Source of the DNA: a virus
Taxonomy: Duplodnaviria; Heunggongvirae; Uroviricota; Caudoviricetes
Length of the DNA: 7,211 nucleotides
Strand: one strand, 5' to 3'
IMG/VR virus record: IMGVR_UViG_2529292747_000014
The position numbers and the translations under genes are program-made. The notes below the pieces were generated by a model, which ran no database searches, was not told where the DNA came from, and was given only the letters and a program-made list of their open reading frames with translations. Below are positions 2,560 to 3,441 of the stretch, one piece after another. The first letter of the stretch is position 1, and each line of letters opens with the position of its first letter.

Positions 2560-2739
2560 ATGGAAAGAGACCATATCAATAACAAATCACAGAAATTACA
2601 GGCTCGCGCCCCGCATGAAGTTGTTGAGGCTATGGAGCAAGTAAAAGAAACAGGCGAGAGCACTGCGCAATTTATCGTTACAGCCATGCGAGGCGAGATC
2701 AAACGCCGCCAGCGCCGCAAGGCCAAAGAAGCGGAATAG
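2560..2739 (+). CDS. Small ribbon-helix-helix (Arc/Mnt-like) DNA-binding protein, 59 aa; putative repressor
   Basis: Below the ORF-track cutoff; manual translation: MERDHINNKSQKLQARAPHEVVEAMEQVKETGESTAQFIVTAMRGEIKRRQRRKAKEAE. The segment LQARAPHEVVEAMEQVKETGESTAQFIV fits the RHH beta-strand/helix pattern of P22 Arc (F-N-L-R-W-P-R-E-V-L-D-L-V-R-K-V-A-E-E-N-G-R-S). AAGGG SD is 8 nt upstream; an intrinsic terminator lies ~90 bp downstream. Confidence 0.5.
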   Translation: MERDHINNKSQKLQARAPHEVVEAMEQVKETGESTAQFIVTAMRGEIKRRQRRKAKEAE

Positions 2740-2827
2740 TCCACCAGCAAGCCAGCACACTGATCACATTGCCCACCAGCCAACAAATCGCTATGATGTT
2801 TGGGCTTATGTTTAGTGTTTTCCCATT

Positions 2828-2860
2828 GGCGACCTCTGATCCGGGTCGCCTTTGTTTTGT
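2828..2860 (+). terminator. Rho-independent terminator for the rightward RHH transcript
   Basis: Stem GGCGACC (2828-2834) pairs with GGTCGCC (2844-2850) around a 9-nt loop, followed by TTTGTTTTGT (2851-2860). Confidence 0.55.
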
Positions 2861-3441
2861 CACTGAATGCGGTTGCCAAAGTAAAACTCAGGCTGATATT
2901 CACGTATCAGCCTTTTTTCTTCTTCCTCCAGCTCACGCTTTTTGCGCTTACATGCCTGTAGCTCCCTCCCCTTCTGACTGGCACTTAACTGATATTGCTC
3001 TTTACGGCGAGAAAAGTCCTGTAATGCGCCCCACGGGATACCATAAGCCCCCGTTTTTCTGATTCCTGGTATCACATTCCTGAATACCCAGTTACTGAAA
3101 CGATGGGCGAACGTGCCAGGAGTAACAGCTTTCCGACTTCTGGCGATCAGCTTGTAAAAACCGGATTCAGAAATGAGGCTATGATTTGGATTTCCTCGAA
3201 TACCGTAGCTTAAAGCGACGGTTTTCTTTTCATCCGCATCTAGTGCTTTTAGAGCATCGCGTGAGTTACTTATTTCCAGAGCAACACAAACATCCTTTGC
3301 AACAAACCACGGATCGCCGTTCAGATACACCACGCGAACGTTCACACTATCAAAGCGCAGAACGACCAGATCACGAAAATCACAGAATTTTTTTACATGA
3401 CGTGCGTCACCCTTGCCCGTCACGGCAATATTTTTATTCAT
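2860..3441 (-). CDS. Bro-N domain protein (antirepressor-like, KilA/Ant N-terminal family), 193 aa
   Basis: Track ORF with VRVVYLNGDPWFVAKDVCVALEISNSRDALKALDADEK and FSNWVFRNVIPGIRKTGAYG, both hallmark Bro-N motifs; charged C-terminal coiled-coil-like tail. GAGGT SD upstream of ATG 3441..3439. Confidence 0.8.
   Translation of the reverse strand: MNKNIAVTGKGDARHVKKFCDFRDLVVLRFDSVNVRVVYLNGDPWFVAKDVCVALEISNSRDALKALDADEKKTVALSYGIRGNPNHSLISESGFYKLIARSRKAVTPGTFAHRFSNWVFRNVIPGIRKTGAYGIPWGALQDFSRRKEQYQLSASQKGRELQACKRKKRELEEEEKRLIREYQPEFYFGNRIQ

What the first reader, a model, noticed from the sequence alone, without database searches (positions are those of the whole stretch)
2560..3441. Arc-like RHH gene and Bro-N antirepressor-like gene in convergent arrangement, each with its own terminator
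An Arc/Mnt-type RHH protein next to a Bro-N (Ant-like) protein recalls the P22 immI antirepressor module, but here the two genes converge and are insulated by terminators instead of forming an arc-ant operon. This could be a rearranged or novel induction-sensing module, for example Bro-N acting as an antirepressor that senses helper-phage infection.
Basis: inference. Interest (0 to 1): 0.45.

Follow-up and report, generated by a model that had tools for sequence, protein, structure and literature searches.

The report
Satellite repressor switch beside cargo gene
The two genes are real but are not a paired antirepressor module: the small ribbon-helix-helix protein looks like the missing repressor of a widespread family of phage-parasitic islands, with its own matching DNA sites, while the Bro-N gene is optional cargo sitting next to it.

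Summary
Both ORFs are real, conserved and convergent (RHH 2560-2739 +, Bro-N 2860-3441 -). Only the RHH gene has its own terminators; the single strong minus-strand terminator lies upstream of Bro-N.

The window is a Gram-negative phage-inducible chromosomal island (PICI) inserted in the large-terminase gene of a lambdoid prophage of E. coli O157. This "helper-embedded PICI" is a published kind, and its Bro-gene zone is published too.

In 50+ related islands from about 15 genera, the RHH gene (YlcI/YnfO family) is a core gene. It is always divergent from the Icd-like-to-primase operon. Bro-N is present in only 5 of 46 unbiased loci and is absent from the model island EcCICFT073. The P22 arc-ant reading is therefore not supported.

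New here: the 196-bp divergent region carries three 11-bp pseudo-palindromes at fixed positions over both promoters. Their core sequence changes in step with RHH strand residues 11-14 (at least 15 types, permutation p < 1/5000). It does not track the AlpA or Icd-like proteins. The RHH protein is most likely the island's type-specific repressor, something the literature calls "unclear". A conserved structured RNA antisense to the Icd-like start site lies beside it. The role of Bro-N remains unresolved.

The parts
2160..2363 (-). Icd-like gene, first gene of the leftward operon (Icd-like, two hypotheticals, DUF4222, primase, SSB...)
   Evidence: NCBIfam NF033153, 69.5 bits. RefSeq annotation. 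Present divergent from the RHH gene in related islands.
2348..2356 (+). Candidate extended -10 element TGgTATGAT for a plus-strand antisense RNA (inferred)
   Evidence: Read directly from the sequence. The same motif is seen in the E. coli, Serratia and Yersinia loci. It lies inside Icd-like codons, so its conservation may simply be due to coding.
2363..2442 (+). Conserved structured RNA antisense to the Icd-like ribosome-binding site and start codon. Helices at 2365-2396 (two nested) and 2399-2433 (terminator-like), then a T-rich tail.
   Evidence: RNAalifold on 25 islands gives -29.9 kcal/mol on the plus strand, with 24 pairs, 15 of them carrying compensatory changes. 96% of cells are paired and 0/500 shuffles reach this. 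The minus strand gives only -5.5 kcal/mol. Helix 3 folds at -20.1 kcal/mol. No Rfam family matches.
2460..2470 (.). Operator O1, CTGGATTCCAG; overlaps the -10/+1 of the leftward promoter
2469..2498 (-). Leftward promoter P_left (-35 TTGAAG 2498-2493, -10 TATACT 2474-2469) for the Icd-like-primase operon
   Evidence: Promoter scan. The TTGA of the -35 is invariant at a fixed distance in 44 loci.
2483..2493 (.). Operator O2, GTGGAATCCAC; lies in the spacer / -35 of P_left
2524..2529 (+). -10 TATACT of the RHH gene's own promoter
   Evidence: Near-invariant hexamer (consensus TATACT, column entropy about zero) at a fixed position, 54 nt before the conserved Asn codon, in nearly all of 44 loci.
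2528..2538 (.). Operator O3, CTGGATTCCAG; overlaps the -10/+1 of the RHH promoter (autoregulation)
2560..2739 (+). RHH protein of the YlcI/YnfO family; proposed type-specific island repressor
2828..2858 (+). Intrinsic terminator 1 of the RHH transcript
2890..2921 (+). Intrinsic terminator 2 on the plus strand, inside the 3' end of the Bro-N ORF
2860..3441 (-). Bro-N domain protein (193 aa), accessory gene of the 'Bro zone' / cargo slot
   Evidence: The slot is variable.
3459..3487 (-). Intrinsic terminator after the AlpA-like gene, 26 nt upstream of the Bro-N ATG. It gates Bro-N expression.
   Evidence: It is conserved, with compensatory stem changes in L052.
3501..3725 (-). AlpA-like HTH regulator/excisionase (position after int; weak profile matches)
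   Evidence: Pfam HTH_17 E 0.005. PHROG 66, 'excisionase and transcriptional regulator', E 1.7e-7. RefSeq places the start at 3704.
3718..4956 (-). Tyrosine integrase of the island
5118..6125 (-). N-terminal fragment of the helper prophage large terminase (gpA) gene, split by the island
   Evidence: Pfam GpA_ATPase E 6e-82. The C-terminal fragment lies 10.4 kb away, at L001 5573-6703.

Best explanation
The interval spans parts of two functional units of a helper-embedded Gram-negative PICI.

(1) Immunity switch
- The 59-aa ribbon-helix-helix protein (YlcI/YnfO family) binds three 11-bp pseudo-palindromes: O1 2460-2470, O2 2483-2493 and O3 2528-2538.
- O1 and O2 cover the -10/+1 and the spacer/-35 of the leftward promoter, which drives the Icd-like-to-primase replication operon.
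- O3 covers the -10/+1 of the RHH gene's own promoter.
- Bound RHH would therefore keep island replication silent and autoregulate itself.
- Specificity lies in strand residues 11-14. These residues and the operator core have diversified together into at least 15 types, so different islands are blind to each other's repressor.
- A structured plus-strand RNA (2363-2442), antisense to the Icd-like ribosome-binding site, probably adds a second layer of control.

(2) Cargo slot
- Bro-N sits in the variable slot between alpA and the RHH gene.
- It has no room for a promoter of its own (26 nt between the terminator and its ATG). It can be made only when transcription from int/alpA reads through the terminator at 3487-3467. 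That transcription could be AlpA-activated, or it could be the helper's late, antiterminated transcription entering from the split terminase gene.
- No terminator follows Bro-N on that strand. The same transcription would run antisense through the RHH gene and on into the replication operon, overriding repression.

Status of each step
- Shown: gene identities, the architecture, the covariation, the RNA covariation, the terminator positions.
- Inferred: DNA binding by RHH, repression, read-through derepression, expression of the antisense RNA.
- Unknown: what Bro-N does biochemically.
For: Context
- The window is 100% identical to E. coli O157 chromosomes. The island splits a gpA terminase gene. 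This configuration, and the four zones Integration/Bro/Replication/Late, are described in PMC10111431.

Architecture
- An unbiased 9-mer search found three or more copies of an island-specific motif in 39 of 47 loci, at the same positions.
- The TTGA of P_left and the TATACT of the RHH promoter sit at fixed distances (-84 and -54 from the Asn codon) in 44 loci.

Covariation
- Loci with the same strand residues 11-14 differ at 0.9 of 22 operator positions. Loci with different residues differ at 9.3 of 22. Permutation gave 0/5000.
- 63 cross-genus pairs of the same type differ at 0.3/11 and 1.0/11 operator bases, but at 7.2/28 bases in the spacer between the sites.
- The same pattern holds in two further RHH sub-types and in EcCICFT073.

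Other proteins excluded as the specificity determinant
- One operator type occurs with three different AlpA families, and one AlpA family occurs with five operator types.
- Icd-like is 87-93% identical among five E. coli islands that carry five different operator types.

RHH fold and register
-.

Operator distribution and co-residence
- The motif occurs nowhere else in the island.
- Co-resident islands in one genome never share a type: 0 of 12 pairs, permutation P = 0.001.

Bro-N as cargo
-.

Terminators
-.

Literature
- A 2026 survey lists YlcI/YnfO in PICIs only as a 'prophage-associated protein' (PMC13612085).
Against: - There is no experimental binding or expression data.
- The RHH gene and the operators are about 100 bp apart, so they are inherited together. 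Association alone could therefore reflect linkage. The arguments against that are indirect: three concerted copies per island, operators more conserved than the spacer between them, and protein variation concentrated in the strand and helix A.
- The RHH promoter has no recognisable -35.
- Read-through derepression is pure inference.
- The co-residence statistic rests on five draft genomes, where identical repeats may have been collapsed.
- Published work shows that AlpA is necessary for induction, and that cloned alpA triggered EcCICFT073 excision and replication without a helper prophage. A repressor layer may therefore be secondary.
Confidence: 0.6

Rival explanations
1. RHH and Bro-N form one immI-like module. 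Either the RHH protein controls Bro-N expression as Arc/Mnt control ant, or Bro-N is the antirepressor that inactivates the RHH repressor when the helper is sensed.
For: - The genes are adjacent and convergent here and in 10 other loci.
- The Bro-N family is labelled 'anti-repressor' in PHROGs and in phage records.
- Bro-N is gated by the alpA terminator, so it would be made only on induction.
Against: - No operator motif lies near Bro-N.
- Bro-N is absent from 41 of 46 RHH loci retrieved without bias, and from EcCICFT073.
- The Bro-N C-terminus is the same across five or more RHH types.
- The slot carries unrelated cargo elsewhere.
- The 'anti-repressor' labels are annotation transfers, and the KilAC/ANT effector domain is absent.
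Confidence: 0.1
2. The three repeats are bound by some other factor (AlpA, Icd-like, a host protein or a helper protein). The RHH protein would then do something else, for example act as an antitoxin-like or packaging-associated protein, since YlcI/YnfO genes lie next to terminase genes in lambdoid prophages.
For: - AlpA activates downstream EcCICFT073 genes (PMC6092414).
- K-12 ylcI lies upstream of nohD.
- PHROGs labels the Icd-like family 'transcriptional repressor'.
- Linkage alone can produce an association.
Against: - AlpA and Icd-like do not track the operator type.
- The RHH strand residues do track it, across genera.
- O3 sits on the RHH gene's own promoter.
- The RHH fold is a DNA-binding fold in which the strand reads the bases (established knowledge, e.g. 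Arc, MetJ, CopG).
Confidence: 0.12
3. Function of Bro-N (compatible with the best explanation). Bro-N acts on the helper or on competing prophages, either as an antirepressor that binds a CI-type repressor (as P4 epsilon does for P2 C) or as a DNA-binding regulator of helper genes (as PLE CapR does). It would be produced only once the island is induced.
For: - Residues 35-134 are 46-63% identical to the N-terminal domains of phage proteins annotated as antirepressors (phiKO2 gp27, Kapi1, Aaphi23 Ant).
- The slot often carries other Bro-network genes (AntA/AntB, Rha).
- The Bro zone and CapR are discussed in PMC10111431.
Against: - No functional data exist.
- There is no similarity to the helper prophage's own antirepressor-like gene.
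- The C-terminal 67 aa has only 8 representatives in 1.84 billion proteins and gives no clue.
- The structure model is unusable (pLDDT 44).
- There is no defence-system match.
Confidence: 0.3

Closest known systems
Gram-negative PICIs, specifically helper-embedded PICIs (Tommasini, Mageeney & Williams 2023, PMC10111431), and the model island EcCICFT073 (Fillol-Salom et al. 2018, PMC6092414)
   Same: - int, an AlpA-like gene, a Bro zone, the replication zone (Icd-like, DUF4222, primase, SSB) and a capsid gene are all co-oriented.
- The island is inserted in, and co-oriented with, the helper's large-terminase gene.
- EcCICFT073 carries the same RHH / operator / Icd-like arrangement.
   Different: The published model has AlpA as the only island regulator, plus immunity RNAs in some Bro zones. 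The counter-oriented YlcI/YnfO gene, its three operators and the antisense RNA are not described in the papers I could search. In CFT073 the RHH and Icd-like genes carry late-added locus tags (C_RS30120, C_RS30125).
P22 immI (mnt / arc-ant)
   Same: A small RHH repressor with palindromic operators over divergent promoters, inside a mobile element that also carries an 'antirepressor-like' gene. The strand register matches Arc Q9/N11/R13.
   Different: The regulated operon is the replication module, not the antirepressor gene. Bro-N is optional, lies on the far side of the RHH gene, is convergent with it, and has no operator. There is no Pfam Arc/Mnt match.
P1 immI / N15 immA / P4 immunity (c4, cA, CI RNAs acting on an icd-led operon)
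   Same: An Icd-like gene opens the regulated operon. A structured RNA complementary to its translation start region lies there. Bro-network genes (AntA/AntB, Bro-N) occur in the same elements.
   Different: No match to Rfam C4 or isrK. The RNA here would be cis-antisense. A protein repressor is present in addition. The operon behind icd encodes primase rather than Ant.
SaPI Stl / Gram-positive PICI Rpr master repressors
   Same: A counter-oriented repressor gene divergent from the replication operon of a phage satellite.
   Different: The fold is unrelated (RHH of 59 aa versus larger HTH proteins). There is no evidence of derepression by a helper protein. Here transcriptional read-through is proposed instead.
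E. coli K-12 YlcI (DLP12) and YnfO (Qin)
   Same: Same NCBIfam family. The R-x-P motif and the helix pattern are shared.
   Different: The relationship is distant (hhalign probability 6%). The K-12 genes lie upstream of terminase genes in lambdoid prophage remnants and have no known function or operators.

Membership tests
YlcI/YnfO family (NCBIfam NF041551) | Profile score above the curated cutoff | tested here: met
   72.3 bits against a cutoff of 30, residues 9-50
Ribbon-helix-helix (MetJ/Arc/CopG) superfamily | N-terminal strand followed by two helices, structurally superposable on solved RHH proteins | tested here: met
Ribbon-helix-helix (MetJ/Arc/CopG) superfamily | Sequence-profile match to a curated RHH family | tested here: not met
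   Only PF07704 at E 0.031, 15.6 bits against a cutoff of 28.3. The PDB profile search returned nothing relevant.
Ribbon-helix-helix (MetJ/Arc/CopG) superfamily | Dimer that inserts the paired strands into the major groove of repeated or palindromic sites | tested here: inconclusive
   Three pseudo-palindromes covary with strand residues 11-14. Dimerisation and binding cannot be tested with these tools.
P22 immI-type arc-ant module | RHH repressor gene co-transcribed with, or directly controlling, the antirepressor gene through operators at its promoter | tested here: not met
   The genes are convergent. Operators occur only at 2460-2538, with none upstream of Bro-N. Co-occurrence was 5 of 46 loci.
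Bro-N domain proteins (PF02498) | Profile score above the gathering threshold | tested here: met
   68.1 bits against 25.6, residues 34-125 covering the full model
Ant/KilAC-type phage antirepressors | C-terminal ANT/KilAC (or P22_AR_C) effector domain; demonstrated binding to a repressor | tested here: not met
   No Pfam domain beyond Bro-N. The C-terminal 67 aa is a narrow orphan segment. Repressor binding is not testable here.
Gram-negative PICI / helper-embedded PICI | Co-oriented int, alpA-like and primase genes; Bro zone; size about 10 kb; insertion inside, and co-oriented with, a helper prophage late gene | tested here: met
   Annotation of L001 and the split gpA gene. Definition taken from PMC10111431. 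Induction by a helper was not tested.
C4 / CI / IsrK immunity RNAs (Rfam RF01695, RF01394) | Covariance-model match | tested here: not met
   No hit at E <= 1 in the whole window. Only an isrK match of 10.9 bits (gathering score 50) in a focused scan.

The most novel reading that the evidence does not exclude
Three elements together form the previously unrecognised master immunity switch of Gram-negative PICIs, including EcCICFT073: the YlcI/YnfO-family RHH protein, its three type-specific operators, and a cis-antisense RNA over the Icd-like start site.

The switch has diversified into many heteroimmune types, which would let several islands coexist in one cell. It would be overridden by read-through transcription from alpA or from the helper's late operon, not by a helper-encoded antirepressor as in SaPIs.
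Probability: 0.35. Interest if true: 0.75.

Novelty: new variant of a known kind. Interest (0 to 1): 0.55.

Why it matters
Gram-negative PICIs are abundant in Enterobacterales. Here 1325 of 5426 complete E. coli genomes match this region. These islands move virulence and anti-phage defence genes between bacteria.

Their published control model has only an activator, AlpA, and states that a global repressor is unclear. A conserved repressor with readable, type-specific operators would supply four things:
- the missing 'off' state;
- an explanation of how several islands coexist in one genome;
- a simple sequence-based typing scheme (strand residues 11-14 plus the operator core);
- direct experiments in the existing EcCICFT073 system.

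It would also give a set of naturally orthogonal small repressor/operator pairs. For the finding as originally stated, the useful result is negative. The Bro-N/RHH adjacency is a by-product of a cargo slot lying next to the immunity gene, not a new induction-sensing module.

Tried and rejected
- Rfam scans of the window and of 2300-2600: no C4/CI/IsrK or any other family.
- tblastn of the RHH protein against 50,697 phage records: no match. The family seems to be satellite- or prophage-remnant-specific.
- Literature searches for YlcI/YnfO, for PICI + ribbon-helix-helix, and for recent EcCICFT073 papers: no functional description.
- AlpA as the binder of the repeats: rejected, because AlpA families and operator types assort independently.
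- Icd-like as the binder (PHROGs calls the family 'transcriptional repressor'): rejected for specificity, because it is 87-93% identical across five operator types.
- Bro-N as an RHH-specific antirepressor: no support. Its C-terminus does not vary with RHH type.
- Bro-N similarity to the helper prophage's own antirepressor-like gene: none.
- Bro-N, RHH and neighbouring hypotheticals against PADLOC: no hit.
- Word-indexed search with the Bro-N C-terminal 67 aa: returned only fragments. The exhaustive search found 8 representatives and gave no functional hint.
- AF2 model of Bro-N from a shallow alignment: pLDDT 44, unusable, so no fold search was run.
- Search for att direct repeats flanking the island: only a 10-bp match, so the boundaries are not defined at base level.
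- Segment-wise dN/dS with Biopython NG86 on 10-codon pieces gave unstable values. It was replaced by pooled pN/pS, which shows constraint everywhere and no positive selection.
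Full report
**What is there**

The window is 100% identical to chromosomes of E. coli O157:H7-type strains. In the annotated record NZ_CP018239 (locus L001) the interval lies in an island of about 10.4 kb. On the minus strand the island reads, in order:
- integrase (window 3718-4956)
- AlpA-like HTH gene (3501-3725)
- Bro-N gene (2860-3441)
- Icd-like gene (2160-2363)
- two hypotheticals
- a DUF4222 gene
- primase
- beyond the window: SSB and a protease/capsid fusion gene

Only one gene is on the plus strand: the 59-aa ORF at 2560-2739.

The island splits the large-terminase (gpA) gene of a lambdoid prophage. The N-terminal fragment is at window 5118-6125 (Pfam GpA_ATPase, E 6e-82). 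The C-terminal fragment lies 10 kb away.

This is the 'helper-embedded PICI' configuration of Tommasini, Mageeney and Williams (PMC10111431). They describe four zones (Integration, Bro, Replication, Late), including a terminase insertion site. The element type and the presence of Bro-network genes after alpA are therefore already known.

**Checking the observation**

The RHH ORF is real.
- It matches NCBIfam YlcI_YnfO_N (72 bits, cutoff 30) and PHROG 949 (unknown function).
- It has 108 homologues of 59-64 aa across Enterobacterales.
- It is under purifying selection: pN/pS is 0.32 overall and 0.20 in helix B.

The RHH fold is supported at fold level only.
- No Pfam RHH family reaches threshold.
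- PDB sequence search and Foldseek are empty.
- hhalign against P22 Arc aligns K12, Q14 and R16 with the Arc base-contacting residues Q9, N11 and R13. The role of those residues is established knowledge of the Arc-operator complex. The alignment probability is only 20%.

Bro-N is confirmed: PF02498 at 68 bits, with hundreds of full-length 193-aa homologues.

The genes are convergent, 120 bp apart.

The terminator statement is only half right.
- Two plus-strand terminators follow the RHH gene (2828-2850 and 2890-2913).
- The one strong minus-strand terminator (3487-3467) lies between alpA and the Bro-N start.
- The minus-strand hairpins downstream of Bro-N lack U-tails.

**Are the two genes a module?**

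I collected related loci in three ways:
- by DNA similarity in E. coli;
- with the RHH protein alone across one genome per species (46 loci, about 15 genera);
- by locating the model island EcCICFT073 in CFT073.

In all of them the RHH gene is divergent from the Icd-like-to-primase operon. What lies on its other side varies.
- In many Xenorhabdus, Serratia and Pectobacterium islands, and in EcCICFT073, the next gene is alpA itself or a small ORF.
- Elsewhere the slot holds AntA/AntB, Rha, a GIY-YIG nuclease, a RES-domain protein, a Ser/Thr kinase with a PP2C phosphatase (PADLOC PD-T4-6/Stk2-like), or an ion-channel-domain protein.
- Bro-N is adjacent in 5 of the 46 unbiased loci.

The Bro-N C-terminal half is nearly unchanged between islands with different RHH types. 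The motif that I assign to the RHH protein is absent from the Bro-N, alpA and int upstream regions. The arc-ant analogy therefore fails on arrangement, on co-occurrence and on operator placement.

**What the RHH gene does go with**

The 196-bp region between the Icd-like and RHH genes has the same layout everywhere. An unbiased repeated-9-mer search found three or more copies of an island-specific motif in 39 of 47 loci, at the same positions. In the window the sites are:
- O1, CTGGATTCCAG (2460-2470)
- O2, GTGGAATCCAC (2483-2493)
- O3, CTGGATTCCAG (2528-2538)

The general form is (G/C)TG-N5-CA(C/G).

Placement relative to the promoters:
- O2 lies in the spacer/-35 of a leftward promoter (TTGAAG 2498-2493, TATACT 2474-2469). 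The TTGA of that promoter is invariant at a fixed distance in 44 loci.
- O1 lies at its -10/+1.
- O3 overlaps a near-invariant TATACT -10, and the +1, of the RHH gene's own promoter.

The core of the sites changes from island to island, in step with RHH residues 11-14:

| Residues 11-14 | Operator core |
|---|---|
| QK(L/I/V)Q | GGA-N-TCC (mostly) |
| QKMS | GGCACCC |
| KKLE | GTCAGCC |
| Q(A/S)LK | GTGGCCC |
| QSVT | GTCTTAC |
| QQLN | GAATCGC |
| QMTT | GAAATAC |
| QL(F/T)T | GAAACAC |

Further types are documented.

Statistics:
- Same-type loci differ at 0.9 of 22 operator positions; different-type loci differ at 9.3. Permutation gave 0/5000.
- 63 same-type pairs from different genera differ at 0.3/11 and 1.0/11 operator bases, against 7.2/28 in the spacer between the sites.

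The other nearby proteins do not track the type.
- One operator type occurs with three AlpA families, and one AlpA family occurs with five operator types.
- Icd-like is 87-93% identical among five E. coli islands that carry five operator types.

Genomes carrying two to four islands never carry the same type twice (0 of 12 pairs, permutation P = 0.001). The caveat is that identical repeats may be collapsed in draft assemblies.

EcCICFT073 carries a Q-A-L-K RHH protein (C_RS30120) with GTGTGGCCCAC operators, divergent from an Icd-like gene (C_RS30125). Both genes carry late-added locus tags.

**Mechanism proposed**

The RHH protein binds O1-O3. It represses the promoter of the replication operon and autoregulates its own gene. 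This would make it the island's type-specific immunity repressor.

This is inference from architecture and covariation; binding has not been shown.

The linkage caveat is real, because gene and sites are about 100 bp apart. Three features are hard to explain without a common, co-evolving binding protein:
- three concerted copies per island;
- operators more conserved than the spacer between them;
- protein variation concentrated in the strand and helix A.

[quoted passage not shown] It lists YlcI/YnfO in PICIs only as a 'prophage-associated protein' (PMC13612085). I found no description of this switch.

**A second layer**

Directly left of the operators, at window 2363-2442 on the plus strand, lies a conserved structured RNA antisense to the Icd-like ribosome-binding site and start codon.
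- Across 25 islands the plus strand folds to -29.9 kcal/mol, with 24 pairs, 15 of them carrying compensatory changes.
- 96% of cells are paired, and 0/500 shuffles reach this.
- The minus strand reaches only -5.5 kcal/mol.
- The many G-U pairs on the plus strand would be A-C mismatches on the minus strand.
- The last helix (2399-2433, -20 kcal/mol) is followed by a T-rich tail.
- An extended -10 (TGgTATGAT, 2348-2356) lies at the right distance upstream.

This recalls the P1 c4/icd and P4 CI logic, but no Rfam family matches. Expression is untested.

**How Bro-N fits**

The alpA terminator is conserved, with compensatory changes in one locus, and leaves only 26 nt before the Bro-N ATG. Bro-N can therefore be transcribed only by read-through from int/alpA, or from the helper's late transcription. 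PMC10111431 argues that the latter propagates into embedded islands.

Nothing terminates the minus strand after Bro-N, whereas two terminators stop the RHH transcript from entering Bro-N. Induced leftward transcription would therefore cross the RHH gene antisense and continue into the replication operon. I propose this as the derepression route; it is inference.

The biochemical role of Bro-N is open.
- Its N-terminal domain resembles those of phage proteins annotated as antirepressors (PHROG 2593).
- The usual C-terminal effector domain is absent.
- Its own C-terminal segment is a narrow orphan.
- My structure model was unusable.
- The best guess is action on helper or competitor phage regulation, at about 0.3.

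**Verdict**

The finding as written is partly right on observation and mostly wrong on interpretation. The element and its Bro zone are known. It is a new variant of a familiar kind of immunity module and is directly testable in EcCICFT073.

Noticed in passing
window 2363-2442 (+), antisense to the start of the Icd-like gene: A conserved structured RNA in 25 islands. It has 24 pairs, 15 of them with compensatory changes, and folds on the plus strand only. It ends in a terminator-like helix, and a possible extended -10 lies at 2348-2356. No Rfam family matches. It is a candidate cis-antisense regulator of Icd-like translation.
   Followed up: partly
window 5118-6125 (-) and L001 5573-6703: The island interrupts the helper prophage's large-terminase gene and is co-oriented with it, so the prophage cannot package DNA until the island excises. 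This is the published helper-embedded PICI configuration. I could not find flanking att direct repeats longer than 10 bp.
   Followed up: partly
L009/L014/L016/L047 (Xenorhabdus innexi), L008/L022/L046 (X. mauleonii), L035/L038 (Pectobacterium carotovorum), and others: Genomes carrying two to four of these islands always carry different RHH/operator types (0 of 12 pairs the same, permutation P = 0.001). This is what heteroimmunity would predict, but draft assemblies may collapse identical copies.
   Followed up: partly
Slot downstream of the RHH gene in L026, L031, L035, L037, L039, L003, L004: The position held by Bro-N in the window is a cargo hotspot. Elsewhere it holds a RES-domain protein, a Ser/Thr kinase (PADLOC PD-T4-6/Stk2-like) with a PP2C phosphatase, an ion-channel-domain protein, AntA/AntB, Rha and a GIY-YIG nuclease.
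   Followed up: partly
L055 5243-5653 (EcCICFT073); L003 6324-6521; L005 6323-6505: In many islands, including EcCICFT073, a second small plus-strand ORF (about 57-65 aa, no family match) follows the RHH gene as an apparent two-gene operon. It is absent from the window, where terminators follow directly.
   Followed up: no
L053 4180-4377 and L052 4463-4768: Two further RHH variants in otherwise similar islands. One is a 65-aa form with a YlcI-like helix B and three GTGCGCAC sites. The other is a 101-aa form with a C-terminal extension and four to five GTGTTTCA-type sites.
   Followed up: partly
L001 20279-20289: A one-mismatch copy of the window's operator (CAGGAATCCAG) lies 35 bp upstream of the helper prophage's own 'antirepressor N-terminal domain' gene (19675-20244). 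About 1.9 such matches are expected by chance in 31 kb, so it is probably coincidence.
   Followed up: no
window 1191-1364 (-): RefSeq marks the small ORF between the 203-aa hypothetical and the DUF4222 gene as frameshifted. The island may be slightly decayed in this lineage.
   Followed up: no
window 6960-7211: Only one genome (strain PA2) matches the window over its full length. The other O157 genomes match only up to 6959, so the sequence upstream of the small-terminase gene differs between strains.
   Followed up: no
window 2160-2363 (-): PHROGs labels the Icd-like family (phrog_6196) 'transcriptional repressor', whereas NCBIfam calls it a host cell division inhibitor. The two annotations conflict and neither has been tested for this protein.
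   Followed up: no
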